A stretch of 64,000 nt of DNA from Centruroides vittatus (Eukaryota). The translations under genes were made by a program, and so were the position numbers. The stretch is from positions 124,099 to 188,098 of the forward strand of contig NW_027122668.1 in NCBI RefSeq assembly GCF_030686945.1, in the 5' to 3' direction. Below are positions 17,586-60,416 of this stretch, piece after piece; the first letter of the stretch is position 1, and each line of letters begins with the position of its first letter. The notes beneath the pieces were generated by a model, which saw nothing but the letters and a program-made list of their open reading frames with translations, ran no database searches and was not told the DNA's origin.

Positions 17586-17886
17586 GAAAGGTGCCTCCTA
17601 GTGTTTTCTTGTCCTGAAGAAGTTCCATTCTAGAGAATTAAGAGTTTGAAAGAGGTTAATTTTTAAAAGTACACAAAATTTGACATGTTTAAGAGAAATT
17701 AAAGGAATTTCTCATCTTTCTATAAGAAGTTGAATTCTATAAAACTTTTAGGACAAACTGTACATATATATAATAATTAAAAGACCTTAAAAAGGTAATA
17801 AGGTGAAGTGATTTGAATTATTAATGTTTAGAAAGTTAAAATTGCTTTCAGTCTCATTTCACCTCAAAATTAATTAGAACTATATA

Positions 17887-18191
17887 CAGTAGAGCATCGA
17901 TTATCCGACTTAATTGGGGACTGGGGTTGGTCGGATAACTGAAAAGTCGGATAACCGAAAAGTATGAAAAAATACATTATTAGTATAGTGTATTAGGCCT
18001 GGTTTAAATACTAGCCTCCCTTTCATCATCGAGCCATGCTGCCAGCTAAAACATGCAAAAATTTAAAAAAATAATATTAAAGTAGCCAAGACAACCAAAT
18101 ATTGTAGCGCCACATCACTAGCGGACATTTGAATTTGCCGACTAGAACGCGGTCAGTTAACCGATAAGTCGGATAATCGATGCTCTACTGT
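17887..18191. mobile_element. Tc1/mariner-like MITE (TIR cagtagagcatcgattatccgac, TA duplication), present in copy 1 only
   Basis: ta|cagtagagcatcgattatccgacttaattgg ... ccgataagtcggataatcgatgctctactg|ta. At the matching position copy 2 carries a different, unrelated insertion (41716..41810 and neighbouring sequence). Confidence 0.55.
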
Positions 18192-18455
18192 AATTATATA
18201 ACAAATACATTTGGGTAGATTGTTTAGTATCTTTACTCATATATTTAATTATTTGTATGATTAAAAACTTAGTTGATTATGGAAGTTACTGTGTTAAAGC
18301 TATAGAAGTTTTTAAATATTTTCTGTTGTTGACCAGTGTATTAAAATTATAAATCTGTACAATCCAAATAAAGAAGTTTTTAAATTTAAATCATACAAAA
18401 TTTATAAGAAAATTGAATTCTTTTCTAATGTTTTCTATATTGTTTAGTTGGCGAA

Positions 18456-33620: not shown

Positions 33621-35473
33621 TTTTTCAGTACGTAAATATAGTAATTCACCACCTCCTTAACAAGTTACTGAATATTTCTTTGTCTGCAGGAATAAGGAAC
33701 TCGCTAAGGCCAATGTAAAATTGGATGACTGCCATTTTCATTCCTTAAAATAATTACTGTTACTTGCAAGTGTTAATGAAGTTTAAGACTGTGTGCAAAC
33801 TCAGATTTGACATTATTTTGTTGTTGAAATATGAGCATTCTATTTTTAATACTAATGATACAAATTGTTGTTTAAAATCAAATATATTTTTCTGCTTTTG
33901 CAATTTCTGTAAAATTAAACAGCTTTTCAAGTTTGTCTACATACCATGTGAGGGAAATTGATGTGCTTATAACAAATAAAAATGTATGCAGATGTTGATT
34001 ATTTATTTATCTAAATACATCTGCTAGTAGAATATATATATATATATTTATTCTACTAGCAGGCCAGTGTTGCCCAGGTAAAAAGTAATACAAATAAATA
34101 TTAAAATTTAAGCATTGCATAATAATTAATGGGGCTTTATTAGGTTTAATGCATTATTATATAATTTTCACTGCATCAAATTGAAATTATAGGATTCCAG
34201 AGGATTTCATCCATAACAATTACCCCTGCAGACCCAGCAATGTTTGGGACCCACAATTGGAAGAAATTTTAAGTTGGTAAGAAAGTGCAGTGAGATTTTA
34301 CATTGAAAGTTCTGTAAAGAATATTTTGTACATTTCATTACAGTAGCAAATCTTAAGGTGTTTTTTTGTATATGTAAAATTATCTATATCTACCCAAATG
34401 TTGGTTATTTGGAAAACATTATTGTTTGTATTGTTTCCAGGGAAAATAAATTTATTTGTAAATAATGTCATTGCTAACAAACTATTAGTTTAAGATGCTA
34501 AACTAGTTGATAAGTTATCTTTGGGTTCTGTAAAACTGACAAAGACAAGAGGATGCAATGTTATAACCAGTTTTCTTTTAATGAAAACAATGTTATGTGA
34601 AAATATGCCTTCCTTTCGTCTTCACAATAACTAAGTCCCAAGAGACCTATATTCCGCAACTTTTTTCTAAATTCTTTCCACCTTGTAGACATCGTTTTTT
34701 TTCCTCTATACCCATTGTGGGTTTGACCACACCCACAATGGAGACCAACAAGGGGTGAGGGATGGGATCTAACATGAGTTTAACTAAATGGGAAAACTCT
34801 GGGGCATTGCTTGCCCAGATTCAAGCCTGTCCCCAGAATGTTAGGCTTTACTGCCTTGGCCATCCAACCATCTCATGTTTCTTAACTATCTATGGGAAAC
34901 ATGTATATGCCGAAATTGGTTTTAACAGGAACGTAGACAAAGCATTCTCTCTAATAATGGTCAGATGGACGAGGTAGTTAAGGCATCAGCCCACTGCTCT
35001 GGGGATCCAAGATTGAATTCAGGTGGTCAAAAAAGATTTACTCATGGATCAGGTAAAAGATGAGCTCTTCAAAAAATTTGCAAGGTCCCTACTGTTTTCC
35101 ATTAAAGTACTGCAAGTTAGCTTATATTTTCTGCAAGATCCTAGTAACTGAAAAATTTGGTTTGATCAGTCAGATGGCTTAGAAGTGTACAGAGAACATA
35201 CAGGCAACAAATACACTATTTCTTATATGTAATTAAAACATAATTAGCAAATTCTGAATTATAAGTCAATATTGAAGATGATGATAATAATTAATATAAT
35301 GTGTAGCAAATCAACAACAAGAAGATCTTATGGATTTTATACATTATCAATACTACACCTTAAATTCTTGTATAGAGTTAATTTTCTTCTTTTCTGTATT
35401 GTTGGCATGCCATTAACTTCTCATAGATGTGCTAAAAAATTTCATTAGATAATGCTAATAAAATATTTGTATA

Positions 35474-35805
35474 CAGGGTGGGCAGCGAAAACGAAACGGC
35501 AGAGTGTTCGTGTTCGTCCAATCAAATCGCTCGGACAGGTCGATTTTATTCTCGAGGGAACATCTTATGCAATAAAGTTTTTGCAAATCTGAATATTAAC
35601 TAAACAAACATTTTTTTTCCGAAATAAATGTTTGTTTACTTAATACAAAATAAATGAGTTTTTAAATTTTTTTGTTGTCTGTTGTATTCAGAATCGCAAA
35701 AACATTATTGCAAAAGATGTCCCCTCGAGAATAAAATCGACCTGTCCGAGCGCTTTGCTTGGACGAACACGAACACTGCCGTTTCGTTTTCGCTGGCCCA
35801 CCCTG
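35474..35805. mobile_element. Foldback, mariner-like MITE (TIR cagggtgggcagcgaaaacgaaacggcagagtgttcgtgttcgtcc..., about 110-bp arms, TA duplication) lying just inside the 3' edge of duplication copy 1
   Basis: ta|cagggtgggcagcg...cgctggcccaccctg|ta. The arms are about 110-bp inverted repeats around an AT-rich centre. The identical element closes copy 2 at 59996..60329. The two copies share only the 6-bp TATATA after the MITE right TIR (35806..35811 and 60330..60335) and then become unrelated. Confidence 0.6.
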
Positions 35806-35814
35806 TATATAAAC

Positions 35815-39006: not shown

Positions 39007-39142
39007 GACGTCACTTTTTCTCGCCGCAGAAGTCGATTTTGTGCCGCTTTTCTCGTGCTGCAAAAGTTGGTTGAATTCTACTTTTGGCGGCGGTCGCCGC
39101 CAAGAGACGTTTCTATCAGCCAATAACAGTTCGTCTGGTTGT

Positions 39143-40641: not shown

Positions 40642-41715
40642 TCTTCACCCACGTGGTATTCGGGAGCTTTCTCGTTCTCGTCTTTCCTCCTTCAGCTCTG
40701 ACTCAAAAGTGACTCTTTGTCTTGGTTCTACCCCTGAGGGCTGCATACAGTCCTATTGTCCATAATGGGGTCACCTATTGTTAAGCCGTTAAGCACCGGT
40801 CAGGGAAGGGTTCCAGGAAGTAAAGATAATATGAATAGGAAAGAGAAGGAAAAATATATTCTAAGTTAAAATAAAATATAACTATATATTACACAAATGG
40901 CATTTAGCCACAATATATCTACTGACCAGGTTGTCATTTTGACATTTTAAGCATTAATATATAAATTTCAGTAATATTTTAAAGATCATTGACTGAGATT
41001 TTATATAAATAATAAGGTATTATTTTAATTGCATGTCTTAACAAATATTTTAATAATTTCTTTAATATATTTCAATAATAATAAATCTAATGTTTATGTA
41101 AAAAAAAAAATTGTTAAGTATGATTTATGCTGTTTACTTTTACGCATGAAATCAAATATGTATTTTTAGTCGGGAAATATATTTTGTAATGCTTGTTTTT
41201 ATATTACTTTAATGTTGTTAATCATCATAAATTTTAATTATTTAATGTGTTTATCAGGTTTCTTTGAATTACATTAGTAATTATTCTAAAAATTTATTTA
41301 ATTTATTCTAATTTTTTAAATGTTTTTCAGTAAATATTAATTTTTTTTAATTTAAAAAAGATTTTCTTCTGATTAAATGTAATCTTAACAGTTTTATTTG
41401 ATATAAGAATAGTGATTCTGGATTTTAAGATTATGAAAAATAATTGCTTCAATAAAGTATGTTTTAACAAATTTTTGTGCTAGAAAGGGATGAAAGGTTC
41501 TCCTAGTGTTGAAGAGAAATTAAAGGAATTTTTCATCTTTTTATTAGAAGTTGAATCCTATAAACTTTTAGGACAAATTATACCTTTGTATAATAATTAA
41601 AAGACCTTAAAAAGATAATAATGTGAAATGATTTGAATTATTAATGTTTAGAAAGTTAAAATTGCTTTCAGTCTTTCATTTTACCTCAAAATTAATTAGA
41701 ACTATATAGGCCTAT

Positions 41716-41810
41716 CGTATTTTACGGACTATAAGACGCACCTTTTTCTTCGAAAAATTGCCTCCAAAATTCAGGTGCATCTTATAGTTCGTAAAATACG
41801 GTAATTGTTA
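41716..41810. mobile_element. Small palindromic MITE (cgtattttacggactataagacgcacc ... ggtgcatcttatagttcgtaaaatacg), copy 2 only
   Basis: A perfect inverted repeat with about 30-bp arms. It sits at the site where copy 1 carries the unrelated Tc1-like MITE 17887..18191. Confidence 0.45.
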
Positions 41811-42287
41811 ACGTATATAATTAACTTTATTATAATATACAAACATAACTTTGTGGTAATACAAACTATTGTGCCTCCAGGTCTAAGGGTCACCACAGCT
41901 AACATACAACTGCCTGGAGACAAAGGAACATGACAAAGGTCAAAGGTGAGGGGTTGCCTAACTAGGTCAAGGGGCAATTCGGTGTGGGTTATCTCCTGGA
42001 GGTTTATATACCTAACAATAATTATATAACAAATACTAAATAATATCTTTGTATATCTTTACTCATATATTTAATTATAATTATTTCTATGAGTAAAGAT
42101 TTAGTTGATTATGGAAGTTACTGTGTTAAAGCTATAGAAGTTTTTAAATATTTTCTGTTATTGACCAGTGTATTAAAATTATAAATCTGTACAATCCAAA
42201 TAAAGAAGTTTTAAAATTAAATCATACAAAATTTTATATGAAAATTGAATTATTTTCTAATGTTTTCTATATTGTTTAGTTGGCGAA

Positions 42288-45200
42288 ATGACCACTCCAA
42301 AGCATAATCGTAATGAGGAGAGTATTTATAGGATCCCACCGTATTATTATTTACATGTTTTGGACCAGACATCAAATGTTACAAGAGTGGAAGTCGGTCC
42401 ACAGACATATATTCGCAAGGAAAATGAAAGGTATGAAAGTTAACTTAAATAAACCTGAACAAAGCTATAATAATCTCATAGTACAAGTTATATATGAAAT
42501 TAAATTGTAGTATTAAGTCTGCACCATATTAATTTTAAGCTGTAATTAATTGATTTATCAAACTGTTTATTTGTGACTGTCGGCCATATTGTATATATAT
42601 ATTTTATTGTATATAGTTGTAATCCTATCTTATTTTTGCAATTTCCTCCTTTTTCCTTTGTCTATTCTTTCTTAAACTTTCCATGACTGTTATCGCCATG
42701 TGGCTGGATTAGACGTTCCGAGAATCGGTAGGGACAATAACAGGTAGTGTGGCCTGGGGAAAAAGTGGCTAAGAGAGGGGTCACTTTTCGACTAGATACG
42801 AAGAGAGACGGACGGCAAGAGCGAGGCTCGATCGTGATTTCCGAGAGAGGAAAGAAGTGCGATAGTCGAGTGAAGAGCCGAAATATAGAGACCGGCATAT
42901 TGGAGAACCCCAATAATTGAGAGAAGAAAGGATAGTGAAGAAAGCCACTATCGTCGGATCCAGGTTCTACACAAAGTATCAATACGTATCCGCCGAAAAA
43001 GAGAAAACCCCGGGTGAATCATCCCTTCATTTCTTCTACCTTTCTGCTGTCCTATCTTTCTTATTTTTCCTTAATATTAAGAGTTTAGATTTAAGTTAGG
43101 TTAGTCAAGTGTTTACGAGGGACCGATTGTTACGCGCTTAAAAATTAACACACCTCGAATTGTAAATCAGTTGGGATTCCTTAACAACAAGAACCTTATT
43201 TGTTCTAAGTGGAATAAAGGAACATTGTTTATTATTGTAGTCGTTGCAGTGTCCTTTTCTGTACGTTTCATTCGCAGGCCATACTGCCACACTCTTATAG
43301 AACACCACATATTCTTAGAATTTTGAGTTATAAAATATTTCTTTTACTAATGATTGATTTTGAAATTTCCTTTTGCCAATATACATGGTATGATCCAAAA
43401 GTTCGGGGAATGCAGTAATCTATGACAACAAAAGCATGTATTTGAAGTTACAGCGTATGAAATGGATTCTACCAACTCACCTCTACGTGTTCAGGTTAAT
43501 TTCACCCATGTCATGTGATTAAATCGTGAGCGCTGCTGGTTTTTCCGGAGATAGTTACCTTTGTCCTGCGACGTAATCAAAGTGGAGTTTCAAGAACAAC
43601 CTCCAACATTTCGACTTCACCGTGACCTTTCACCGTAGAATCACCATACACCTTTCTTAGCAATTTTAAAATCTCCGTAGGTGTTTTCCCTAAACGCTGC
43701 CAAAATTTAATGTTGGAGGTTGTTCTTGAAACTCCACTTTGATTACGTCGCAGGACAAAGGTAACTATCTCTGGAAAAAAACAGCAGCGCTTGCAGTTTA
43801 ATCACATGACATGGGTGAAATTAACCTGAACACGTAGAGCTGGTTTGGTAGAATCCATTTCATACGCTGTAACTTCAAATACATGCTTTTGTTGTCGTAG
43901 ATTACTGCATTCCCCGAACTTTTGGATCGTACCACGTATATACTTTTTTTTCTCTTTACTATTCAATGCATATTTATTCCAATATACAATTGTAAATCAA
44001 AAACTATTTATTTTTAATACATTAAAATTATTATTCTTTACTTTTATTAATGTTCTTACTTTTAAAAATAAACCATGTAAATAATGAAATACAGTAAAAC
44101 TTCTGTAACTTGAAGTTTTTTCCTGCCTCTTTCAAGTTAGACAATTCAAATTAGAGAACAATACTGATAAATGCCAATTCCAAGTAGATTAGATCTCTTG
44201 CATTTTATATAAAGAATCTTTGATAGTTTTTTGTTTTAAACAGCTGTTTAATGCCTTTTCATCATGTTCAATGTAGCTAACAGAATCAGTTTTTTGCAGG
44301 TAGAGTACATCTTATTGAGATAAAGCAACAGATCATCTCATTTTGGACTGGAATGTTGTCTATAAATGGGTGTTGGACAGTATATACAACTAACTGTCTG
44401 AAAACTTCATGAAAATCAACAATTAGGATCACTTCAGACAGAATAAATATTAAAATTCAAGTCAGGATCAAGTCAAATATAAATCTAAATTGAACCAAAT
44501 ATTTCACAAGATTCTAAAAAAAAAGTTACAATAGAACACATGTAAATGTCACTATAGAATATGAAAAATATAAAAATATAGAAATATAAGAAAAAAAAGA
44601 CTTACTTTTGAAAAGAATAAGATTGTTATTGCAATAAATTTGCACTTCCACAACAACCTAAATCAACTTTCACAAGGTTTTGGTTTCTTTTCTTCCCATA
44701 CTTGTGGTGCCATCTACAAAAGTTCTTCCCTCTTTCTTCTCCTGTATATTTCCATTTTATGGGTAGAAGACAGAACTAGAGTTAAAATGGATTCTAAGCA
44801 ATGAATTCTGTAAAACTGTAGCTCCTCAATTAATTAACGAACATTGAATCTACTAATTAAAGTACCTTACAATAGAATATTACTTATATAATATAAGAGT
44901 ATAAATAAAACATAATTTTATTATCATAGTGATATTTTGATAATGATAAGTATTAGGTGACAAAATCGAGTTCTATGGTCTTAACCAAACAGTGACAGAA
45001 CTGAGGGAGCAATTGTAAAAGGTGCAGTGCGAAAGGAAGACATAATGCATGGTCCAATTAAACAAATTTAATTTTGTGCTTAAAAATATATATACAGTTT
45101 CTTTAAGGTTTCCCACTGTTGTACAATTCCGGCTACCTTCTGATGGTTTCAACGTTACAGGCGGTTCAGCTAGTTGATCTTATCCCAACTACTAACCAAC

Positions 45201-48200
45201 AATGGTTCGTGTCTAATAGTCTTTGGCTACTTTGTAACTAAAATTTTTATGTACGGTGCAATTACCGCTAGTTAACACTAGTCAAGTTGGCTACTTTTTA
45301 AATTGTAAATTCCATGTATCTAACATCCAATTTATTCTTTTTATTATGTGTTACCTTTCAAATGTCTACTAGACACTGTGGAATAGCCTTTGCCCTTTTA
45401 ACTGTCTTCATTATCACAGTATGTCGTGCACTACACTCCAGCCATCTCAATACTGTATATCTTAATATTATTGTAAAATGCAACTAGCATTATTTGAATT
45501 AACAACAAAACTGGTTACTGACTACATCGATGTACTTATGTTACTCTATATTCTTATAATATTGTATTGTATTCAAATTGAACCAACCTCTTGTTGGAAA
45601 AGTACTCCCATTTTGTATATACTGTTAATTCTGTACACATTTGTATTCTATTGCATCTTGTTTTAATTGAATAAATGGCGATGCAGATGCCCATGGGGTC
45701 CCTTGGGGGCCTCGTGGTTGCTATTTTCACACTTTCCTATCTTTCTTTGTTTCTTCTTCCACCTAACTTCTCTTTTCTTATTCTCTTCTTTCCGCTTCCA
45801 ATAGGGCTAAGTCTGATGCTAAGTATGGATAGCCCCCTTTTCCTTTAATCCAAAGTCCAAAGTCTCTTGCACGATTCCTAATCTAACTTAATCTAATAGA
45901 AGGTGGATAGAAGAAGGGGAAGTAGGAAGAATAATAGAATAGGGGGTACCCAATTTATCGGCAAGTAGTCAAAGTATTTCTTCGTCTCGACTTCCGAGTC
46001 TTGAATGTTTTATTCTCTTGCAGATCGGCTGTCTCGGAGTTCTCCTCCAGATCTATCAATATACTTCTTTCTTGATCCGTTCTCTATGGTCTCCTTTTTC
46101 ACAGTGCTTGTTGGATTCCACTTACGAACCTTGCCACCACACATCCATTACCTCTTGTGTCCGGCCCAAGAATGTTTCTTGGAATTTCTATTTTCCCCTC
46201 CAGCCTCGTCGCAGACTATTGTTTTCACTCTACCTCCTGGTGGGCTAGGGGTGAGTCTGAGTTCTCAGAAGTTCGAAACAAAGGGAATTGGAAGGAAGGA
46301 TAAATTTATAGAAATAGAATATAAAATTAAATTAAAAACTATACAAAATAGAATGGTGTACAGCCACATGATATTTGTGAGGGTGACAAAAATGAGGGAT
46401 GAGTGTAATCCAGTCTCTATGAAAAATTTGATCACATTATGAATTTTTTTTATTCTAGAGTTTAGTTTTGATGTTACAGGAATTCCTTGACTTTTGGACA
46501 ATTCCCTCCACCTCTTTTTTTGTACATTATATTTTGATACCTCTGAGTTACTTTTCTTAGATAAAATTTGGATTTTTATACATTTTCAGCAACAAAAAAA
46601 AACATTTGAGAGATTGTGCAGTGACTTTCTACTGATCTAGATTTTTCTAACATAAAAATCAATTCATTTTGTAAAAAATTACAGTAGAGGCCATCATAAT
46701 ACCATTTTGTTTTATGTAAAATAGAAATAAATACTATAATTTTTAAATAAAATTTTATAATTAAATATTTTCAGAGTTATTTTGGGACCCGAAAAAATGA
46801 TCATTGTTCCTCCAGGTCATTATTGTGTGATACAAAATCCTGTGATAAGAGACAATGATGGAATTATTCAATATGATCTATATGGTCAAAGTAAACTGCG
46901 ACATGCTGACTTAGAAATAAGATTACAGCAAGATCCTTTTCCTTTATATCCTGGAGAAGTTTTGTTTCAGGTCAGAAGATATTAAATATTCAATTTTTCT
47001 TAAAAATTATTTTAAGTTTAAGCACATATTAATTTATACATCATAATTAATTTTATAACTTTATTGTACATTGATAAAGAAAGTACAGATTCTATCAATA
47101 TTTGATTTATATAGAAGACTAAGATTTTATTGTCGTGCTATCTATATCCTGGCTGATTAAGTATATCTTACCAAATTACATATCATCTATATATTTAACT
47201 AGCCAAGTTACAGTTTGATAATAAACCCAATTTTATCATTTAAGTAATAAAATCAATTATGTAGTGTATATTTTTGATATTTATTAATTAACGTCAACTA
47301 ATTTTAAGTGGATGAATAAAATAACTTTTTATACTGATATCAATAAACAATTTATTAGATTATATTATCAGAATTCATCTTTGTCTTCATATTACTCAAT
47401 TTTTCATTTTGAAATAGTAATATTTGTGTTCTTTAATTTTAATTTTGCAATTTCATCAAATTTAAGTTACATTTGTGCTATTGTATGCTTGTAAAACAAA
47501 TATTTTTTTCAAGAATACACTAACAAAACATATATAAACGTTTTGAAAATATTTGTGTTAGATGTTTAATTTTAATATTATTCTTAATATACATTATAGT
47601 CATTCTTTACTTATTAGTATATTAGTGTTCTCCAGAAATTTTTACCAGTGAGATGAAATGTGTGAAGAGGTTCCAAAAATGGGTTTAAATTAAACATTTA
47701 TTATAGAAACTTATTAAAACAAAACTAGAGGAAAAACACCTCCATTGTTAAAACGGATGAAAGATCGGATTCTTTGTGCTAGTCATATGAAACTGGGCAA
47801 GGAAATAAATACTATTAGTGAGGTTGAGGCAGAAGTTTTAAACGCGAAAACGTGTATGTCGGACGCTCAGCGCCGCTTTCCGTAAGCCTAGAAGTTTGAC
47901 AATGGCATTTGGAAAGTCAGTGGAATCATGCTCAATATTGCAAACATCATTGTCAAACTTCCACGCTTATAGGAAAGTGGTGCTGAACATCCGACGTACA
48001 CGTTTTCTCATTTAAAACTTCGGCCTCAACCTCACTATTAATGTAAAACACAACACAATAAATGTAAACGAATGTTCTCCAGTAGAGATGGACCTATGAC
48101 AAGGCACTCGTATAGAAGTAAATAGAACATAGAAAAATTTTGGAAAGGGGAACGGTTAATTATGAAAGGAGACATTGTGTCAGGCCATTAAAATTCTAAG

Positions 48201-51200
48201 ACATCATACACTAGACAACAATGAGTTAAAATATGAGCGCAAGTTCAAAGTCCCATAAACGCCTTCTATCGAGGATGGTGTCGGGTAGATTCTCCTTTCT
48301 GGTGACCTGAACAGGTCTTGTCTTTCACTTAGGGACAGATGAGGGACCAATCGGGGAGTGGGAAGAAGAGACGTGGAACCAATCAGAATGGACAAAAGGG
48401 GGAGAATGGAGATTGATATAATCCCTGATCGTCAAGGTCAGGGGACACTCAGTTAGTAGAGTCTAAGGTGAAAAGATGCTGTGTGTCAATACATGGAAGA
48501 TGGAGCTTTGTCCTTGTGCCCATACAGAGAGCGATGCTACCGATGCCAACCAATGAATCTCCTCATCTGCTGCAGAAAAAATATCCTCGAACCTTCAATT
48601 GTTTAAAGCACTTTGTGCATAGAGTAAGTTATTTCCTGTCAAAATAAACGGGTTATGTGAGATACTTGTTATCATTTGTCTCCTCTGCCACAATCTCACG
48701 CGAGCATCCCTAGATCATCCTGACGCTGGATTAACAATCCATTTGTAAGTTGGCTAACTTACAAATGGAGTAGCTGGAGTGATAAAAAATACTGCAGTTT
48801 TTATAAAATTTTTTATTCATAAATTCAATTCATATTTCTTCATAAACAAGTACATCCACATAGACATAAACAAACACATCTATATTGAAAGTCATTTGAA
48901 AGAGACTGTGTAGAAGTTAATTCACCACATGGATTAGCTTCTGCAAATGTCAGTTGGCAATGGGTGATTATGTTGTTAGACTAAGCCAATTTTATAGTAG
49001 TGAAAGTGTCATTTAATAAACTTTTTAAAATGTTCTATCAGTTTTAGTCAATTTTAATAAATATAACAATAGTATTTTGTATGAGTAAATCACAGTGTAC
49101 ACAATCTAGCAGAAAAATGCCATGGTAAATTATTGTGAAGCAGAAAAATTTTGTTTCTAAGCATGGAAAAATTATAGAAAAGATAATTTTTGCTTTTGTA
49201 ACAATTACTACAGAAAATGAGAATAGAAAAGTTTTTACATGCCAATTCTGTTTAAAATATTATAAAACAAATTGGCATAACCTCAACTATTTTCACCTCT
49301 GAATGATGATAGAATTTCAAGATAGATGATGGTATGGTCAGTTGTAAAGCATTCATTGATCATGATCATTCTCAATTCCTTTATTGTCCACTAAGGCAAA
49401 CACTCAACAAACTAAACACATAGTAAATGTTAGAAAATTTATTTACACTTGATATAACATGTACAGGTTCAATAAAGGATGCCAACTCTAGGCAAGACCC
49501 AATCGTTGGTGGAACGATGACGACATACTGAATCCATACAAAAATCAATGACACTTATTACAAAAATAGTTTTTCTAAAACTAACCCTTAATACTAAATG
49601 TACCCTAAGAAAGGAAGATTGCTACTTTTTGCCCCTCTTCAAAGGTGGCAGATAGGACAGAACAAAAAGTATGCGGGTCATACAAACATCTTCCTGTTAT
49701 TGTGAAGGGCCATGTGGAAACTTCTTACATACAATACATGCTTGTCTTATCCTCAGTTCCTGAGGGTTTTTACTTGTATCCAAATTGTCGGTCACTCTTT
49801 TGAAACTTTCAACTGGTCAAGAATGCCAACTCAAACACTGGGAATTTCAAGGTTTCCACTCAAAGTTATAACTTCACCATCTACTTGGGCACCGGACACT
49901 GTAACATCTCTTCTTTCATCATCATTTCTCTTCAAACACCAGCTCAAAAGTGACCTTCCTTTGCCTTGTATGCCCTCAGATAACCTTGTACTCATTATAC
50001 TGATTATTTCAGGAAGTGGCCCTCACCTCCAAGAAGGAAGAATTAAAGAGATTAGCAAGTTCTAGAAGGGAGAAAGAACAGAGAGTATGAAGAACAAAGA
50101 CAAAAAGAGACATACAGTGGACAATCACAATATGAATAAAAATTACAAAATATTTTTACATAATCAGTAGTTACTAAAATCCACTAAAAAATAGATAACA
50201 CATTATTTTCTAATTTCTCTCTTATTCTGAAAATATAATCTGAAATAAAAGCATTAATTAATGGAACCTAATCTTGGCACTCCTGTAGTGTAAGCCTACT
50301 GCCCACTCTACCTAAGTCTCAAACTGATACTGACTGTAAACAATTGACATTACATGCGATTTTGTTACTTCATTTCTTGAATTCTTTATGCTACTGAGAG
50401 AATTTATCTTTTTCTGCATTACTTTATTGTAAGTAGGAATGGAACTTCACAATTCTGCATTCCTGTTCTTACTCACTATTTTGTCGGTGCAAAGAATCAG
50501 GCAGCAGATCCATAAAAATGGATCTGATTTCAAACTTGGTAATTTGATACACAGTACTCCTGAATGATAAGTCAGAATTTTTTTTCCTTCTTTAAAAATA
50601 ATTTACAAAATTTAGAAGTCAAATGACATTTTTAGAATAGAGATATCTTTTGTATTCCACAAAACTTGGTACTGTGGTTAACTTTTAAATTCTTAAATAT
50701 CTACTTCTTATGGAAACTAAATATATATATTTTTGGCCCTAAAGTTGTATTAGAAATTAATGGAAACTGAAGACAGCCTATTTAGGGCCGAAAACATTTA
50801 ATTTATAAAAAAAAAAGAAAGTCTTGGATTCCATACAAAGTGGTTACTTAAGAATTTTAAAAAATCATTTGCTTTTGCATTTATATCTTAAAATTTTCTA
50901 AAATTTAATTATTTAATAAATTTTTAGGAAGTGAAACAATTACAAGTTGTTCCTGCAAACTGTGCTCTCAGAGTTCGAGCATTAAGAGATTTTGAAGATG
51001 ACAAAATAAAAAGAATTGCAGGAGATGAATGGCTGTTTGAGGGTCCAGGTATTTAGGTTCATATTTACTAGACATATAGTTAGATTTCATAAATTACCAT
51101 TAATCAATAAAATTATTTGACTTTGTATTGTTTGTCACACTGAATAAACCACAAGAAAAGACAGAAAAACAAAATTAATTTAAAACAGATGTAAATTTTT

Positions 51201-54200
51201 TAAATGTAATATGTGTTATCATTAAAAATAACTATAAAAACATTCAGACATTATAGAAATAAGTTTTATTTCCTCAATATTTACTTTCTAAGTAAAAACT
51301 TAATTCTTGAAAATCATTTTTCAAAGTTAATCACCAGAATTTATTGCTTTATTTTATAGGAACTTATATACCTCGTAAAGAAGTAGAAGTAGTAGAAAAA
51401 GTTAAAGCAACCGTAATCAAACCAAATCAAGCCTTAAAGCTACGAGCAAAGACCGAAATGATCGATCGTGATGGAGTAAAGCGCGTAATGGGAGAAGAAT
51501 GGTTGATTAAAAAAGTTGGTGCTTATTTACCAAGAGCACATGAAGAAATTGTTGATATTGTCAATGCATATATTCTAACAGAAAAAGTAAACTTCATTTG
51601 GTTTTCAACTAAAATTTATATATATGTTAACCTTTCTTATGTACTGAAATTTGTATTTTCTTTAATATTAGGAAGCGGTTCACGTTCGTGCAATTAACAC
51701 ATTTGTTGACGATCTGGGCAACACTCGAAAGAATGGAGAAGAATGGCTAGTGAAAATGACAGATGTTGACACCTACATTCCAGGAGTTTACGAGAAGGTT
51801 GTAGGAGTAATACCTATTACGGCGCTTTCAAATCGTCAGTACTGTGTTATTCTAGATCCTGTAGATGAGAGCGGTAAGCCACAGCTAAGCCAGAAATTGT
51901 TGGTTAAGGTAAATTATTTTAATTGTAACTTAATTTTGATTTATAGTAATTTACGAAATTACAAGTTTGATTTTTGTATAAATTAAGTTATTCAGTTTAT
52001 TTATTATTTTATTACTAAAGTCTATAAGCATTTTTATTATTATTTAAATCTAAAATTTTATTAGAAATTTATCATCTACTAAAAGTTACTTAAGAAAAAA
52101 TTCTTAATTTTCTCATTTTAATATTTTATACATATATCATGGCATAAATATAGTTTTCCACAGTAAACTTAATGTAGAATTCCAGTTAAAAATTGATTTT
52201 AACCAAATATAGTTTTTAAATTACCAAAATAACTTCTCAATTTTGAATACAGGTACTCCTCACTTTACGACTGAGTTCCGTTCTGACAACTACGTTGTTA
52301 AGCGAATTGGTCGATAAGTGGGGAGCTTGCTCCAGGAGTATAGGATTGTTGTAAAATTATCCAAATTATTCAACAAACTTCAAATTTATTCATAAAAAGA
52401 CTATTATAGTATGCTATTAGCATATTATAGTACTATAAGACTATTATAGTACGCTTAGTGCGCATGTCACCATTTGCCACTGAACGACACTCAAGCTGAG
52501 AAAGGGGATTCCCTGAATTGCAGGTTGAAACTCAATTGGTCGTAAGTGCGAGTGGTCGTTAAGCAGATAGGTCGTAAAGTGAGGAGTACCTGTAAAGTTA
52601 AGAAAATAGTTAGCAAGAATGTATGGCTCTACTTCCATCAAAATATGGAAACTGATTAGCTCAAGCTCAAAATAGCTGCTTTAAAGTGACTTCCTGGGCT
52701 GTTCACTATGCTTTCTCAAATTTCTTTCATTGTCACTTTCATGCAGTACCTCAGCTTTTCGAGTTTTATACTTACCAATGGTCATTTCCTATTTCTCAAA
52801 CTGTTAGAAAGTAATTTGGTGATTATACAATCTGGTGCTCGTGAAGTTTCGCACTCATATTTCTGATGTTTTATACCATGTAACAATATCCTTTTGATGC
52901 TGGTTTATAAGTTTAGAAATAGCCATTTTCGACATGTTACTATAGTAACAACAATAATAATAAGCAGTATGCCAATAAAACATTATTAATTTACAGTTAA
53001 AATCTTTTAAAGTGTATGTAATAACCTCGTTGAAATGTAAAGAATATAGAAATTAACTTTCTACAGTTCATACAGTAAAATTTTAAAAAAAAATTTATTG
53101 GAAATTTTGCAATTTAACTGAATTAAAATTTTTATTTTTTGAAATACATTTAATTAATAATTGATTTTAAAAAACTTAGTTAAAATGTCACAAAGTTTTT
53201 CCTATTGTGAATTGTCAGATAGAGTTAATATGATACAGAAATAATTAATTTTTAGAAATAAGTTTTTACTTTATATTTCTGAAATCAATATTTTCAAATC
53301 AAAATTTTAAAATTTCTATAACTATAGACGATTTTATTTAAAACAGGGAGATAAATCATTCTTTTTACATCCTGGCGAACATTTGGAAGCTGGTATTCAA
53401 GAAATACATGTGTTGAGCGATAACGAAGGGCTTGTTTTACGTGCAAAAGAAGCTTTTGTAGATACCACCGTAACACCTGTAAGAAAGACTTTTTTCCTCG
53501 TTTATCAGTTTAATAATCATATTAACTATAAATGGGTATAATTTTACAACTTTGAAAACTTTTTATTTTAAAGGCAGTTCAGCGTCAGCCAGGAGATAGA
53601 TGGATGATCAGTGGTGCAGCAGAATATATACCTCCAAACGAAGTAGAAATTTTAGCGAAAAGAAATGCTATTCCTCTTGATGAAAATGAAGGAATATACG
53701 TTAGAAATATTAAAACTGGAAAGGTAAGAGGAAATTTTTAAAAATTTTAGATAAATATGTTTTATCATTATAAGAAAGTTAGTTGGCTAAAAGTTTTATT
53801 TCTTTCAGCTATATTTTAATCTCAATAATAATGATAGAATGTACCTGTACATATTCTATTTAATAATAGATATTATGATAAATATTTTATTAACTGGATA
53901 AATAAGACTACAATATAATATGAATTAAGAGTTCTGCCTTGGGCATGCGAGGCCATGCAGAGCAGTTTCTCCAGTGTGGTGGAGTCTGTAAACAAAAAGT
54001 CCAACTCCAGGAAATTTGTATGGTGTGACTCCTACCTCAGTTTTTTTTTTTTAAAGTAACACTAAGTAGATTCCTTTTTTAAGAAAGACATCATGTGCAG
54101 TGCCTGAATATTTTATTTAACATTTCTCTATAAAATGTTTTTACTAAAATTTGATGATGGTAAGAATCAAAAAATGGATATAACAAATTTACCTCAAAAA

Positions 54201-57200
54201 ACTTTAGAGTACATAAACACACATCTTAATAGCCAAAAGAATTCCACTTTTATTAGTTAATTATGAAAAATTGATTTTAAATTTAATTATTTTAAAGAAG
54301 AAAAATTAAATACAATAAATGCAAAAAATAACGATTTGATGACTGACGTAATAGCGAGGTTGAGGCCGAAGTTTTAAATGCGAAAACGTGTAAGAAAACG
54401 GACGTTCGGCACCGCTTTCCTGTAAGCCTAGAAGTTTTACAATGGTGTTTGGTGTCAGTGGAATCACGCTCGACATTCCAAATGCCATTGTCAAACTTCT
54501 AGGCTTATCGGAAAGTGGCACCGAACGTCAGTCTTACATGTTTTTGCGTTTAAAACTTCTGCCTCAATCTTTTTAATAAATTGGTTCATAAAATAGTTTC
54601 TCCTGCTCTGGCTAGTTGACTAAACTGAAATATACAGTAGAATTTAAAGAAAAATATTTTTTTTTTCCAAATTTTGTCATCTTGGACCAATGGGTGCAGT
54701 CATACCCTGAGAACTTAAACCAGTGAAAAATAAGCTGGAACAATCTTATTAATTAAATTTTGTAGATTTCTCCTTTCTTAGTTTGTTGCAGTTAGATTCT
54801 GATCTTTGTTTTACTTTTTTCATTGATTTTTCTATTGACTGTTTTAAGACCAAATTATGATATCAAAGCTATAATAAATTACTCAAAACCAATAGAAGGG
54901 CAGTGAAAAAATTAATCAATCAAATTAGTAAAAAAAAAAAGTTGATATCCAAAGTAAAACATCTAAGATGTAAAAAATTATGGCACCCAAAATGAAAGTC
55001 AAATTTTTTTTTCTTGGGCTTCTCTTTGGTAAAGATGAGCTTGGCTTTTCGAAGCGATACCACATGCATTTACTTTCCAGGCGCAATCCCACGACTAACT
55101 ACAAGTAATCACTTGTAGTTAGTCGTGTTAGATTAATACAGATTAGTGGTGAAAATAGTGATTTTTATCCACTTGTCACTGGTGGGCCGTAGCTTTTACT
55201 AATTTATTTTCTGAAAGTACACACATCATGTATGAAACGACCTTTATGATTAATATCATTTTGATATCTAAATTAATTGAAGAGTCCATTTTCTAAGAAA
55301 TTTCTTTAGATACTAATTAAAAAGTGTATTTTTTTTTTTTTTTTACTTCACATTTTACAAATAGTAAACTTTGAGGTTGGAGTCAAAAGAATTTTACTGA
55401 CTCCACAACACTTGTTTCTCCTCCTCCTTTTTGAATGTCCAGCCACTTCCACTTGATACTTTATACATGTGTAAATCATCTTATTTCACTACCAAATAAA
55501 ATCTTTGTAATAATGCTAGTGATAACTTTTAAAAAATAAAGCAAAATAATCACTAGTATTATTAAAAATAAAAAATAATTACAGACTTTAATAGCTCACT
55601 AGAAAATATATTTAAGTATTAATGTTTATATTATTTTTAACAAAAAAATGAAAATAGGTTCGTGCAGTCTGTGGAGAAACGTACATGATGAATCAAGATG
55701 AAGAACTTTGGGAAAAAGAGCTGTCGCCAAATGTCGAATCACTTTTGTCGGCTCATTACGATCCGATGGCCGATCGTGGACGGTGGGCAGATAAACAGTC
55801 TGCTGCTTCTGCTCGTTTCCAGAGATAAAACAAGAGTAATAACTTTTCGTGTGCCACATAATGCAGCGATTCAGATATATGATTACAAAGGGAAAAAAGC
55901 ACGGTAAGTTGAAAATTTCACAAAAATACAGTAAGACATTATAATTTTTTTTTTTTTTTTTCCAATTTCTAAATTATTTCATATTTAAATTATGATTTAA
56001 ATGTATTTCAAATTGTTTAGAACAATATACTGAATATTACACAAAAATTGTTTGTAATTTTTAAATTTCATTTTCAAAATAGTGTGGTTTTTGGTCCAGA
56101 ATTGGTTATGTTGGGACCGGACGAACAGTTTACGCAACTAAGTTTATCAGGTCACAAGCCAAAAAAGCCTAATGTGATTCGGTCTTTGTGTCTTCTTCTG
56201 GGACCAGATTTTTGTACTGATGTCATTACTGTTGAAACAGCCGACCATGCTCGCTTACAACTTCAGCTTGCATATAATTGGTAAAAATTTCGGATAATTG
56301 TATAAGAAAATCTGAATAGTGTTTTTGATACTTTGATGATTTAAATTAAGAATATAATTGTTTTTAAATAATTGAAAATAATTTTATGTCGATAATTATT
56401 GTTATTTATTATTTAGGCACTTTGATGTAAGTCAAAAGGATGACGCGACAGCTTCTAAATTATTTGCGGTACCAGATTTTATTGGTGATCTTTGTAAAGC
56501 CGTAGCATCTCGCATTAGAGGAGCCATAGCATCGACTAATTTCGATGACTTTCATAAGGTTAGTAATTATTGTTGATGAAACACCGTTAATAATTTTGAG
56601 AATCCGATAACATTTTATGGAATTGTTAAACAGAATTCTGCTACAATCATCAGAGCTGCAGTTTTTGGCTATGATTCTGATAGAAAGATCAGAAATAGAT
56701 TAATCTTTCCACAGAATAATTTAGTAGTAACTAGTGTAGATATACAAAGTGTAGAACCTGTAGATCAGCGAACTAGAGATTCTCTTCAAAAATCAGTACA
56801 ACTTGCAATTGAGATAACAACTCAAAGTCAAGAAGCAGCTGCCAGGTAACAAAGAAATGATGATTAAAATGCTTTATTAAATGTATATATTTTTTGTTTA
56901 TTAATATTTTACATACTTTATAGACATGAAGCAGAAAGAAGAGAACAAGAAGCCAGAGGAAAATTGGAAAGACAAAGAATTTCCGACGAAGTAGAATCCG
57001 AACGAAGTCGTAAGGATCTTTTAGAATTACAGGCAGCTAGCATGGCAGTAGAAAGCTGCGGACAGGCAAAGGCAGAAGCAAAAAGCAAAGCCGAAGCCCT
57101 GAGAATTGAAGCAGAAACAGCCGTCGAACAAGCTAAATTGAAAGTTGATGCTATGACAATTGAAGCAGTATGAATCTTTTATGTTCCTTTTAATAGTTTT

Positions 57201-58142
57201 TCATTTATTGTAATAATCATAATAATAGAAAAATAGAAAACTGAAATCATTTTCTAATATATTAATATTAAAGTTTCCTTTTATTTCTATTACATCAGAT
57301 AGTTTTCAAACATTGCATTTGTTCAAATTTTTTTTATAGTGAATAATTTTGACTTTAGATATTTTCCTACTATCCTCTATTAGACAGGCTTGAATTAAAC
57401 TTTATAAATACATTGAAATAATTATTTAAGAAATGTTTTTAAATTGCTGCTGTTATATTTAAATAATTTCTTAAAAGGAAGCAGAATTGGAAAGATTGAT
57501 GAAGGCCAGAGATGCCGAAATCAGTTATCTTCGCGAACAAGATGAATTGCAGATTAAGAAATCAAAAGAATTGGCAGAAATAGACGTACAGAAATGCAAG
57601 GATATAATAAGTGCTCTTGGACCCGACACAATTCGTGCCATAGCTCTGGCAGGACCAGAACTACAGGTAAATTGATACGATATAAAATAGTTAATAATTC
57701 ATAGTAGAGCTTCAGTTTTAAAATAGTTTATCATATAAAAACAAATATCAAAATGATATTGCCAAGAAGTTGTTTCTTAATTACTTAATGAAATATTTAC
57801 AAATATATAATTGACTACAATTTTGAGTTTACTTTTGAAAGTCTGTCTGTTCAGTCTGAGTTCAAGCTGAAGAAATACACATGTATGAACACCTATGTGT
57901 AAACTACATGCATTTCAGCTTTTCTAGTTCTTTATAATAAAATGAAAAGTTTATTTGCAAGAAACTCAAACAATATTGTCATAAATTCATTTTATTTTCA
58001 GGTAAAGATTCTTCAAGGACTTGGACTTCATACAACTCTCATCACTGATGGAAATTGCCCCATAAATTTATTTAATACTGCACAAGGATTGATAGGAAAT
58101 TCCTTATTGGAACCACCCACTAAAATACAAAAGGTCGAATGA
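42288..58142 (+). CDS. MVP: Major vault protein, copy 2: same 14-exon structure, but a 1-bp insertion in exon 8 shifts the frame (possible pseudogene or sequencing error)
   Basis: Exons: join(42288..42430, 46775..46970, 50928..51048, 51360..51586, 51672..51908, 53347..53478, 53574..53723, 55658..55903, 56083..56280, 56417..56558, 56634..56845, 56924..57167, 57478..57666, 58002..58142). All splice sites are conserved GT-AG. Exon 8 is 246 nt, against 245 in copy 1. The extra c at 55814 (tctgctgcttctgctCgtttccagagataa, against tctgctacttctgctgtttccagagat in copy 1) puts a taa stop in frame. Other coding differences from copy 1 are mostly synonymous, apart from Gly to Asp in exon 3 (ggt to gac at about 51000) and Thr to Ala in exon 8. 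Confidence 0.75.
45219..45866. other. Copy-2-specific insertion of about 650 bp upstream of MVP exon 2
   Basis: Copy 1 reads ...tctaatagtctcttgcgcaattcc with no interruption at 20128. Copy 2 has ttggctactttgtaactaaaa...aatccaaagtccaaag inserted. ORF 45478..45666 is unsupported. Confidence 0.4.
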
Positions 58143-60416
58143 TTTTTCAGTACGTAAATATAGTAATTCACCACCTCCTTAACAAGTTACTGAATATTTC
58201 TTTGTCTGCAGGAATAAGGAACTCGCTAAGGCCAATGTAAAATTGGATGACTGCCATTTTCATTCCTTAAAATAATTACTGTTACTTGCAAGTGTTAATG
58301 AAGTTTAAGACTGTGTGCAAACTCAGATTTGACATTATTTTGTTGTTGAAATATGAGCATTCTATTTTTAATACTAATGATACAAATTGTTGTTTAAAAT
58401 CAAATATATTTTTCTGCTTTTGCAATTTCTGTAAAATTAAACAGCTTTTCAAGTTTGTCTACATACCATGTGAGGGAAATTGATGTGCTTATAACAAATA
58501 AAAATGTATGCAGATGTTGATTATTTATTTATCTAAATACATCTGCTAGTAGAATATATATATATATATTTATTCTACTAGCAGGCCAGTGTTGCCCAGG
58601 TAAAAAGTAATACAAATAAATATTAAAATTTAAGCATTGCATAATAATTAATGGGGCTTTATTAGGTTTAATGCATTATTATATAATTTTCACTGCATCA
58701 AATTGAAATTATAGGATTCCAGAGGATTTCATCCATAACAATTACCCCTGCAGACCCAGCAATGTTTGGGACCCACAATTGGAAGAAATTTTAAGTTGGT
58801 AAGAAAGTGCAGTGAGATTTTACATTGAAAGTTCTGTAAAGAATATTTTGTACATTTCATTACAGTAGCAAATCTTAAGGTGTTTTTTTGTATATGTAAA
58901 ATTATCTATATCTACCCAAATGTTGGTTATTTGGAAAACATTATTGTTTGTATTGTTTCCAGGGAAAATAAATTTATTTGTAAATAATGTCATTGCTAAC
59001 AAACTATTAGTTTAAGATGCTAAACTAGTTGATAAGTTATCTTTGGGTTCTGTAAAATTGACAAAGACAAGAGGATGCAATGTTATAACCAGTTTTCTTT
59101 TAATGAAAACAATGTTATGTGAAAATATGCCTTCCTTTCGTCTTCACAATAACTAAGTCCCAAGAGACCTATATTCCGCAACTTTTTTCTAAATTCTTTC
59201 CACCTTGTAGACATCGTTTTTTTTCCTCTATACCCATTGTGGGTTTGACCACACCCACAATGGAGACCAACAAGGGGTGAGGGATGGGATCTAACATGAG
59301 TTTAACTAAATGGGAAAACTCTGGGGCATTGCTTGCCCAGATTCAAGCCTGTCCCCAGAATGTTAGGCTTTACTGCCTTGGCCATCCAACCATCTCATGT
59401 TTCTTAACTATCTATGGGAAACATGTATATGCCGAAATTGGTTTTAACAGGAACGTAGACAAAGCATTCTCTCTAATAATGGTCAGATGGACGAGGTAGT
59501 TAAGGCATCAGCCCACTGCTCTGGGGATCCAAGATTGAATTCAGGTGGTCAAAAAAGATTTACTCATGGATCAGGTAAAAGATGAGCTCTTCAAAAAATT
59601 TGCAAGGTCCCTACTGTTTTCCATTAGAGCACTGCAAGTTAGCTTATATTTTCTGCAAGATCCTAGTAACTGAAAAATTTGGTTTGATCAGTCAGATGGC
59701 TTAGAAGTGTACAGAGAACATACAGGCAACAAATACACTATTTCTTATATGTAATTAAAACATAATTAGCAAATTCTGAATTATAAGTCAATATTGAAGA
59801 TGATGATAATAATTAATATAATGTGTAGCAAATCAACAACAAGAAGATCTTATGGATTTTATACATTATCAATACTACACCTTAAATTCTTGTATAGAGT
59901 TAATTTTCTTCTTTTCTGTATTGTTGGCATGCCATTAACTTCTCATAGATGTGCTAAAAAATTTCATTAGATAATGCTAATAAAATATTTGTATACAGGG
60001 TGGGCAGCGAAAACGAAACGGCAGAGTGTTCGTGTTCGTCCAATCAAATCGCTCGGACAGGTCGATTTTATTCTCGAGGGAACATCTTATGCAATAAAGT
60101 TTTTGCAAATCTGAATATTAACTAAACAAACATTTTTTTTCCGAAATAAATGTTTGTTTAGTTAATACAAAATAAATGAGTTTTTAAATTTTTTTGTTGT
60201 CTGTTGTATTCAGAATCGCAAAAACATTATTGCAAAAGATGTCCCATCGAGAATAAAATCGACCTGTCCGAGCGATTTGCTTGGACGAACACGAACACTC
60301 TGCCGTTTCGTTTTCGCTGGCCCACCCTGTATATAGTTTAGCAGATATGAAATCATGTTTCATTTATGTGTATAAGACCATCAATGGAATAATAGCTCAT
60401 TGGTGCAAAAATTAGT

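What the first reader, a model, noticed from the sequence alone, without database searches (positions are those of the whole stretch)
55658..55903. The copy-2 MVP gene carries a 1-bp insertion in exon 8, causing a frameshift and premature stop
Exon 8 is 245 nt in copy 1 and 246 nt in copy 2. The extra C at 55814 changes ...[13 protein letters not shown]... into ...SAASARFQR-stop. Every other exon and splice site of copy 2 is intact. Most coding differences are synonymous, which argues that purifying selection acted until recently. Copy 2 is thus either a very young pseudogene or carries a base-call error.
Basis: seen in the sequence. Interest (0 to 1): 0.6.

Follow-up and report, generated by a model that had tools for sequence, protein, structure and literature searches.

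The report
Frameshifted tandem copy of vault gene

Summary
The window holds two head-to-tail copies of a 14-exon major vault protein (MVP) gene, in repeat units 16817-35811 and 40929-60335. Copy 1 encodes an intact 858-aa MVP. Copy 2 keeps its start, stop and all 26 splice dinucleotides. An extra C at 55814 (codon 455) shifts the frame to RFQR-stop (TAA 55826-55828), giving 458 aa without repeat 9, shoulder or cap-helix. All synonymous differences lie in exons 1-5, where synonymous divergence (4.4%) matches intron divergence and dN/dS is 0.03, so both copies were long kept functional. Exons 6-14 lie in a 7-kb tract (28773-35811) that is 99.8% identical, introns included. This is a recent gene-conversion tract and says nothing about selection. 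The insertion and an A>G change 9 nt upstream are the only differences in 3,453 bp. The insertion is not in a homopolymer, and differences in the tract are mostly substitutions, which mildly favours a real, very recent mutation (about 0.6) over an assembly error (about 0.3). Splicing or recoding rescue found no support. Interest is low.

The parts
16817..35811 (+). Repeat unit 1 (18,995 nt), which contains MVP copy 1
   Evidence: Self-BLAST against 40929-60335, with identity rising from 86% to 98.75% along the unit; MAFFT alignment
18456..33620 (+). MVP copy 1, from ATG to TGA. It has 14 exons: 18456-18598, 21464-21659, 25751-25871, 26183-26409, 26512-26748, 28840-28971, 29067-29216, 31137-31381, 31561-31758, 31895-32036, 32112-32323, 32402-32645, 32956-33144, 33480-33620. 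The CDS is 2,577 nt and encodes an intact 858-aa protein
   Evidence: Exon model built from splice sites and reading-frame phase; E=0 to MVP in the PDB; five MVP Pfam domains
40929..60335 (+). Repeat unit 2 (19,407 nt), which contains MVP copy 2. A 5,117-nt spacer separates it from unit 1
42288..58142 (+). MVP copy 2. Its 14 exons are 42288-42430, 46775-46970, 50928-51048, 51360-51586, 51672-51908, 53347-53478, 53574-53723, 55658-55903, 56083-56280, 56417-56558, 56634-56845, 56924-57167, 57478-57666, 58002-58142. All splice sites, the ATG and the TGA are intact. The CDS is 2,578 nt, so it is out of frame
   Evidence: Projection of the copy-1 model through the alignment
55658..55903 (+). Exon 8 of copy 2 (246 nt), which carries the lesion
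55814..55814 (+). The inserted C, at codon 455 of 858. It is not in a homopolymer. It lies just past the C-terminal edge of the variable, disordered loop of repeat 8, and two codons before the nearly invariant RDKTRV motif
   Evidence: loop residues 429-448 of rat MVP (PMC3595041), mapped through the alignment
55805..55805 (+). A>G substitution (Thr452Ala), 9 nt upstream of the insertion. It is the only other difference in 3,453 bp
55826..55828 (+). Premature TAA stop in the shifted frame. It lies 75 nt upstream of the exon-8 donor, with six exon junctions downstream
28773..35811 (+). Copy-1 side of the recently homogenised (gene-conversion) tract, covering exons 6-14 and the 3' flank. Divergence is 0.21%, against 4.15% immediately upstream. 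The copy-2 side is 53280-60335
55426..55459 (+). Copy-2-specific complex variant in intron 7 (+C, A>C, +10 nt TCCAGCCACT, +C). It is the nearest robust anchor for assigning reads or amplicons to a copy, about 370 nt upstream of the insertion

Best explanation
Copy 2 is a non-processed, intron-containing tandem duplicate of MVP that was kept functional for most of its history. Its 3' 7 kb was recently overwritten by gene conversion with copy 1. After that, a real 1-bp insertion arose in exon 8, probably together with the A>G change 9 nt upstream as one complex mutational event. The allele may be fixed or still segregating. It ends translation at residue 458, so the product lacks repeat 9, the shoulder and the cap-helix that vault assembly needs. 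The stop lies mid-gene with six exon junctions after it, so the mRNA should also be a target for nonsense-mediated decay. Copy 1 remains intact and supplies MVP, so the loss is tolerated. Shown here: the gene structure, the lesion, past selection on exons 1-5, the conversion tract and the domain loss. Inferred: that the base is real, that decay occurs and that the loss is tolerated.
For: Copy 1 is intact and copy 2 has a single lesion. Both copies were under purifying selection in the older part: exons 1-5 have 9 synonymous changes and 1 non-synonymous, pS 4.4% is close to intron divergence of 2-6%, dN/dS is 0.03, and P=5e-4 even if copy 2 had been neutral throughout. There is a sharp step from 4.15% to 0.21% divergence at about 28772, with introns as identical as exons downstream of it. 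The insertion is not in a homopolymer. The two exon-8 differences are 9 nt apart within 3,453 otherwise identical bp, P about 0.005 if independent, and similar clusters occur in non-coding DNA of the same tract, one with a 10-nt insertion that is not a typical base-call error. Differences in the tract are mostly substitutions (15 against 6 indels; 9 transitions, 6 transversions), not indel-dominated as consensus errors tend to be. The neutral indel density in the tract (5 to 6 events in about 5.4 kb of non-coding DNA) predicts about 1.5 indels in the 1,653 nt of exons 6-14 if they are unconstrained. No other frameshift occurs in about 6 kb of other coding sequence in the window. The truncated product loses Vault_3 and MVP_shoulder. 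The cap-helix, residues 647-802, is essential for self-assembly (PMC3595041, citing van Zon 2002).
Against: No reads are available, so the base itself is unverified. A gene held under strong purifying selection for a long time is unlikely, a priori, to be caught within the last few percent of that time just after dying. It carries exactly one lesion and no secondary decay: there are 0 substitutions in the roughly 1,400 coding nt downstream. An intact gene with one consensus or polishing error would look exactly the same. Near-identical paralogous tracts are also where read mis-assignment during polishing is most likely.
Confidence: 0.6

Rival explanations
1. The extra C, and perhaps the neighbouring A>G, is an assembly, consensus or polishing error. 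Copy 2 is then an intact second MVP gene encoding an 858-aa protein that differs from copy 1 at one or two residues.
For: Removing the C restores a full ORF with only G138D and T452A. All splice sites, the start and the stop are intact. Both copies show long-term purifying selection. There is no secondary decay downstream. The lesion lies in a 3.45-kb stretch otherwise identical between the copies, where reads are hard to assign.
Against: The site is not a homopolymer or a low-complexity run. The other differences in the tract look like real mutations: mostly substitutions, more transitions than transversions, and one 10-nt insertion. No other frameshift occurs in about 6 kb of coding sequence in the window. 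Mis-assigned reads from copy 1 would erase differences rather than create a new allele, unless a third paralogue exists outside the window.
Confidence: 0.32
2. The frameshift is real but copy 2 still makes a useful product. Three routes are possible: cryptic splicing inside exon 8 that removes the shifted segment, a +1 ribosomal frameshift at CAG-AGA-TAA-A, or a functional 458-aa repeat-only MVP fragment.
For: The lesion sits at the edge of a variable, disordered loop (PMC3595041). Skipping one base at the new stop would give a full-length protein with only four altered loop residues (read directly from the sequence). A 40-nt GT..AG segment, 55783-55822, would restore the frame. Short MVP forms exist in some protists (PMC12547018).
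Against: All in-frame cryptic donors are weak (gtgggc, gtcggc, gtggac and similar) next to the gene's own gtaa/gtat donors. The least damaging candidates are 25-52 nt long, whereas the shortest real intron is 75 nt, and the longer ones delete conserved repeat sequence. AGA-TAA-A matches no known +1 shift site that I know of. There is no downstream RNA structure (z=0.18). A fragment lacking the cap-helix cannot join a vault (PMC3595041).
Confidence: 0.04
3. The two 'copies' are the two haplotypes of one locus, wrongly assembled in tandem. The frameshift would then be a heterozygous null allele of a single-copy MVP gene.
For: False tandem duplications do occur in assemblies of heterozygous genomes (general knowledge). 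The 3' 7 kb is 99.8% identical.
Against: The window has no N gaps. A 5.1-kb unique spacer separates the units. Divergence reaches 9-14% at the 5' end, with about ten copy-specific insertions of 40-1,400 nt. A stepped divergence profile is typical of paralogues undergoing gene conversion, not of alleles.
Confidence: 0.03

Closest known systems
Vertebrate major vault protein (human and rat MVP; PDB 4V60, 2ZUO and related entries)
   Same: Copy 1 aligns over residues 9-845 with E=0. It has the same architecture: Vault repeats, shoulder, cap-helix and cap-ring. The variable loop that holds the lesion corresponds to the disordered loop 429-448 of rat repeat 8 (PMC3595041).
   Different: [quoted passage not shown] Here there are two tandem copies, and one of them is frameshifted.
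Non-processed (duplicated) pseudogenes arising from young tandem duplicates
   Same: Copy 2 keeps its introns and splice sites, lies next to an intact parent gene, and carries a disabling frameshift with a premature stop.
   Different: It has only one lesion and no measurable relaxation of constraint. The older exons show dN/dS of 0.03, so it is at most a nascent pseudogene or a segregating null allele.
Multi-copy MVP families in other eukaryotes: three paralogues in Trypanosoma brucei, two in Dictyostelium, and expansions in the tapeworm Hymenolepis microstoma
   Same: More than one MVP gene per genome (PMC12547018; PMC3595041; PMC7653826).
   Different: Those paralogues are divergent, with 52-58% similarity in trypanosomes, and they co-assemble. 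The two copies here differ at 2 of 858 residues and are being homogenised by gene conversion, which is more consistent with a dosage or redundant duplicate.
Interlocus gene conversion between tandem paralogues
   Same: Divergence steps abruptly from 4.15% to 0.21% inside intron 5, and the tract runs to the end of the repeat unit with introns and exons equally identical.
   Different: The direction of conversion and the number of events cannot be determined without an outgroup. The older strata (86-91%, about 95%, 96%) suggest several events.

Membership tests
Major vault protein (MVP) family | N-terminal Vault repeat domains (Pfam Vault, Vault_2, Vault_3, Vault_4) | tested here: met
   Copy 1 matches all four repeat families above their cut-offs. 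The copy-2 product as assembled keeps Vault, Vault_2 and Vault_4 but loses Vault_3.
Major vault protein (MVP) family | Shoulder domain followed by the long cap-helix and cap-ring, which are needed for self-assembly | tested here: met
   Copy 1 has MVP_shoulder at 524-641 and aligns through the cap-helix and cap-ring to residue 845. The 458-aa product of copy 2 lacks all of these.
Major vault protein (MVP) family | Assembles into vault particles | not testable with these tools
   This needs expression and electron microscopy or fractionation.
Non-processed (duplicated) pseudogene | A disabling mutation in an otherwise recognisable gene copy | tested here: met
   A +1 frameshift at 55814 leads to TAA at 55826-55828. 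This holds only if the base is real.
Non-processed (duplicated) pseudogene | Keeps the intron-exon structure and lies close to the parent gene | tested here: met
   14 exons, all with GT..AG, head-to-tail 8.7 kb downstream of the copy-1 stop.
Non-processed (duplicated) pseudogene | Relaxed selective constraint, with dN/dS approaching 1 and further lesions accumulating | tested here: not met
   dN/dS is 0.06 overall and 0.03 in exons 1-5, and there is no second lesion. Within the recent tract the test has no power (P=0.07-0.37).
Non-processed (duplicated) pseudogene | No functional transcript or protein | not testable with these tools
   No RNA-seq or proteomic data are available. The species was not found in the exact-match protein index or in the metagenome scan.
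Programmed +1 ribosomal frameshift site | A recognised shift-prone motif at the shift site | tested here: not met
   The site is CAG-AGA-TAA-A. It does not match antizyme UCC-UGA-U, Ty1 CUU-AGG-C or Euplotes AAA-UAA. These motifs come from my own knowledge, not from a tool.
Programmed +1 ribosomal frameshift site | A stimulatory RNA structure downstream | tested here: not met
   The 75 nt after the stop fold at -7.9 kcal/mol, z=0.18 against shuffles.
Interlocus gene-conversion tract | An abrupt change in paralogue divergence that ignores exon and intron boundaries | tested here: met
   4.15% at 27594-28772 against 0.21% at 28773-35811; there are 0 differences in 1,113 intronic nt between exon 8 and the stop.

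The most novel reading that the evidence does not exclude
Copy 2 is still expressed and useful despite a real frameshift. It could be read through by a +1 shift at AGA-TAA-A, which would give a full-length MVP with four altered residues in the disordered repeat-8 loop. Alternatively it could act as a stable repeat-only half-MVP that modulates vault assembly or binds vault partners.
Probability: 0.03. Interest if true: 0.6.

Novelty: new member of a known kind. Interest (0 to 1): 0.15.

Why it matters
The finding matters mostly for annotation. Copy 2 should be flagged as a frameshifted, low-quality or pseudogene model, not silently corrected, until reads confirm the base. Anyone computing dN/dS on this pair should know that exons 6-14 sit in a recent gene-conversion tract and carry no information about selection. 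If the insertion is real, the locus is a clean example of a long-maintained tandem duplicate caught at the very start of pseudogenisation, or of a segregating null allele in a redundant gene. It would also show that an animal kept two near-identical MVP genes under selection for a long time, which hints at a dosage requirement for vaults. None of this changes what is known about vault biology.

Tried and rejected
1. **Cryptic-splice rescue.** I enumerated every GT..AG pair inside exon 8 of copy 2 that restores the frame without a stop. All the donors are weak, and the segments are either much shorter than the gene's shortest intron (75 nt) or delete conserved repeat sequence. Rejected.

2. **Programmed +1 frameshifting at the new stop.** There is no known shift motif and no downstream structure, z=0.18. 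Rejected.

3. **Template-switch origin of the clustered A>G and +C.** No inverted or direct repeat donor lies within 120 nt, and exon 8 matches only two places in the window. No support.

4. **Error signature among the small indels.** The 27 single-base indels between the units were tabulated. Copy 2 has six extra Cs, four of them outside homopolymers, but these are spread over old and young strata, and some probably reflect alignment choices. Inconclusive.

5. **Independent sequence from the same species.** The best exon-8 homologue in the 5.8-billion-protein set is only 72% identical. An exact-match lookup of the neighbouring ketoacyl-synthase ORF found nothing. A metagenome scan with a pattern accepting either allele found nothing. 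The base could therefore not be cross-checked and the organism was not identified.

6. **Rfam scan of the whole window.** No hits.

7. **Constraint inside the conversion tract.** Exons have 1 substitution against 4.3 expected if both copies are neutral, or 2.15 if only one is. Neither is significant.

8. **Polarising the two amino-acid changes with outgroups.** Both fall in variable positions, and the nearest homologues are too distant.

Full report
**1. Observation**

A self-comparison of the window finds one other match to this segment, at 31137-31381, which is 245 nt against 246 nt. The base-level alignment shows exactly two differences. One is A>G at 31284/55805. The other is an extra C at 55814, which turns GCT-GTT into GCTCGTT. 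In the exon's reading frame, copy 1 reads ...[39 protein letters not shown] and copy 2 reads ...[14 protein letters not shown]-stop. The conserved downstream sequence is still fully encoded in copy 2, but in the +1 frame. The inserted C is flanked by T and G, so it is not in a homopolymer.

**2. What the gene is**

The exon-8 peptide matches Pfam Vault_4 and Vault_3, and its database relatives are MVP fragments at up to 72% identity. I built the gene model from stop-free segments, GT..AG sites and reading-frame phase.

- **Copy 1.** It has 14 exons (18456-33620, + strand) and a 2,577-nt CDS encoding 858 aa. It aligns over residues 9-845 with human and rat MVP structures at E=0. It carries Vault, Vault_2, Vault_4, Vault_3 and MVP_shoulder domains.
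- **Copy 2.** Projecting the model through a full alignment of the repeat units gives the 14 exons of copy 2 (42288-58142). Every exon has the same length as in copy 1 except exon 8. All 26 splice dinucleotides, the ATG and the TGA are conserved.
- **The lesion.** Deleting the C at 55814 restores an 858-aa ORF that differs from copy 1 only by G138D and T452A. As assembled, copy 2 encodes 458 aa and loses Vault_3 (repeat 9), the shoulder, the cap-helix and the cap-ring.

**3. Wider anatomy**

The two genes sit in head-to-tail repeat units, 16817-35811 (18,995 nt) and 40929-60335 (19,407 nt), separated by a 5,117-nt spacer. The window contains no N gaps. The units differ by about ten copy-specific insertions of 40-1,400 nt, which look like transposable-element insertions.

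Divergence between the units is stepped:

| Region (copy-1 coordinates) | Identity or divergence |
|---|---|
| 5' flank and first part of intron 1 | 86-91% identity |
| 20120-27011 | about 95% identity |
| 27594-28772 | 4.15% divergence |
| 28773-35811 | 0.21% divergence |

The last step is abrupt and lies inside intron 5, about 70 nt upstream of exon 6. Downstream of it, introns are as identical as exons: there are no differences in 1,113 intronic nt between exon 8 and the stop codon. This is the signature of a recent interlocus gene-conversion or homogenisation tract that covers exons 6-14 and the 3' flank. The older steps suggest earlier events of the same kind.

**4. Selection**

Of the 11 coding substitutions, 9 are synonymous and 2 are not. 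That gives dN/dS of 0.06, Fisher P=4e-5. All the synonymous changes, however, are in exons 1-5. There, pS is 4.4%, which matches local intron divergence of 2-6%, and pN is 0.14%, so dN/dS is 0.03. This pattern is improbable even if copy 2 alone had been neutral since the duplication (P=5e-4). Both copies were therefore maintained by purifying selection for the long period recorded in the 5' half.

In the converted tract the test has no power. Exons 6-14 have 1 substitution, against 4.3 expected if both copies were neutral (P=0.07) or 2.15 if only one were (P=0.37). But the identity of exons 6-14 reflects homogenisation, not selection.

**5. The lesion in context**

The A>G and the +C are the only differences in 3,453 bp (31083-34536), and they lie 9 nt apart, which has P of about 0.005 if they were independent. 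This points to one complex event. Comparable clusters occur in non-coding DNA of the same tract. One is in intron 7 (+C, A>C, +10 nt, +C within 34 nt of copy 2), and another is at 35105/35108.

Alignment with 20 homologous fragments shows that the insertion lies in a variable-length loop between the conserved LADRG and RDKTRV motifs. Using the alignment, T452 corresponds to rat residue 447 and codon 455 to residue 450. Daly et al. report that rat residues 429-448 are a disordered loop on repeat 8 (PMC3595041). The substitution is therefore harmless, and only the frameshift matters.

**6. Consequence if the base is real**

The 458-aa product lacks the cap-helix (rat residues 647-802). [quoted passage not shown] The stop lies 75 nt before the exon-8 donor, with six junctions downstream. 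From general knowledge of nonsense-mediated decay, the transcript should be degraded. Copy 1 is intact and can supply MVP.

**7. Real mutation or error?**

This cannot be settled without reads.

In favour of a real mutation:
- The site is not a homopolymer.
- A substitution is linked to the insertion 9 nt away.
- The other differences in the tract look like real mutations: 15 substitutions against 6 indels, 9 transitions against 6 transversions, and a 10-nt insertion.
- There is no other frameshift in about 6 kb of coding sequence in the window.
- The neutral indel density in the tract predicts about 1.5 indels in 1,653 exon nt if the exons are unconstrained.

In favour of an error:
- There is one lesion only and no secondary decay.
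- The gene has a long record of constraint, which makes it unlikely, a priori, to be observed so soon after dying.
- The site lies in a near-identical paralogous stretch where polishing is least reliable.

I put a real mutation (fixed or segregating) at about 0.6, an error at about 0.3, and the remaining rivals together below 0.1.

**8. Rescue routes tested**

In-frame cryptic splicing inside exon 8 is combinatorially possible, but every donor is weak. The least damaging segments are 25-52 nt, against a shortest real intron of 75 nt, and the longer ones remove conserved repeat sequence. A +1 ribosomal shift at AGA-TAA-A would restore a full-length protein with four altered loop residues. However, the site matches no shift motif known to me, and the downstream 75 nt have no structure beyond chance, z=0.18. 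No repeat that could have templated the complex change was found.

A false haplotypic duplication is unlikely, given the unique spacer, the absence of gaps, 9-14% divergence at the 5' end and the stepped profile.

**9. Comparison with what is known**

Copy 1 is a standard animal MVP. Several MVP genes per genome are known in trypanosomes (three divergent paralogues that co-assemble; PMC12547018), in Dictyostelium (two; PMC3595041) and in a tapeworm (expanded families; PMC7653826). Animal vaults are otherwise described as homo-oligomeric (PMC3595041).

A near-identical tandem pair undergoing gene conversion, with one member carrying a single fresh frameshift, is a routine pattern of duplicate-gene evolution: a nascent non-processed pseudogene or null allele. 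I could not identify the organism. The species is absent from the protein index, the exact-match index and the metagenome scan.

**10. Verdict**

The finding is a new member of a known kind and of low general interest (0.15).

Noticed in passing
window 16817-35811 vs 40929-60335: Divergence between the two repeat units is stepped: 86-91%, about 95%, 96% and 99.8% identity from 5' to 3', with a sharp boundary at about 28772/53279 in intron 5. This suggests repeated gene conversion between the paralogues, always running to the 3' end of the unit.
   Followed up: yes
window 35466-35813 and 59988-60333: A self-complementary foldback element of about 348 nt (81% arm identity) sits exactly at the 3' boundary of each repeat unit. 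It may have played a part in the original duplication or in the later conversion events.
   Followed up: no
window 30916-30938 vs 55426-55459 (intron 7): A complex cluster of differences in copy 2 (+C, A>C, +10 nt TCCAGCCACT, +C) inside the otherwise 99.8%-identical tract. It shows that clustered multi-site changes occur here, and it gives a copy-2-specific anchor for PCR or read phasing about 370 nt upstream of the frameshift.
   Followed up: partly
window 17414-17593, 20992-21420, 23471-23735, 27006-27593 (copy 1 only); 42568-43943, 45218-45860 (copy 2 only): Copy-specific insertions in the 5' flank and in introns 1, 2 and 5, probably transposable elements gained after the duplication. The copy-2 intron-1 insertion contains a 563-nt palindrome (43379-43941).
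   Followed up: no
window 6626-6854, 22500-22727, 29842-30071, 47813-48040, 54349-54578: A family of palindromic MITE-like elements of about 228 nt (80-92% identity, each matching itself in reverse complement). Members lie in MVP introns 2 and 7 of both copies.
   Followed up: no
window 5633-5872, 6919-7146, 60417-60637, 62492-62948: A GC-rich (50-57%) SINE-like repeat family of about 230 nt. At 62495-62948 two copies form an inverted pair.
   Followed up: no
window 7867-9219 (+): One long open segment (450 codons; ATG ORF 8152-9219) encodes a beta-ketoacyl synthase, with Pfam ketoacyl-synt N- and C-terminal domains at E=2e-45 and 3e-38. It is probably the mitochondrial fatty-acid synthase type. 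Its exact sequence is not in the public exact-match index.
   Followed up: partly
window 4041-5060 (+): An intronless 339-aa ORF that appears from its sequence to have several hydrophobic, membrane-spanning-like stretches. It has no Pfam match.
   Followed up: partly
window 39263-39378 / 40519-40636, and 1-104 vs 39141-39241: The spacer between the two MVP units holds an element bounded by 116-nt terminal inverted repeats (96.6% identical). Next to it is a 100-nt segment 97% identical to the very start of the window.
   Followed up: no
window 63325-63705 (+): An open segment with a C2H2 zinc-finger-like motif (CALCNKRFSRKDNLSRHYCQVH) near the 3' end of the window.
   Followed up: no
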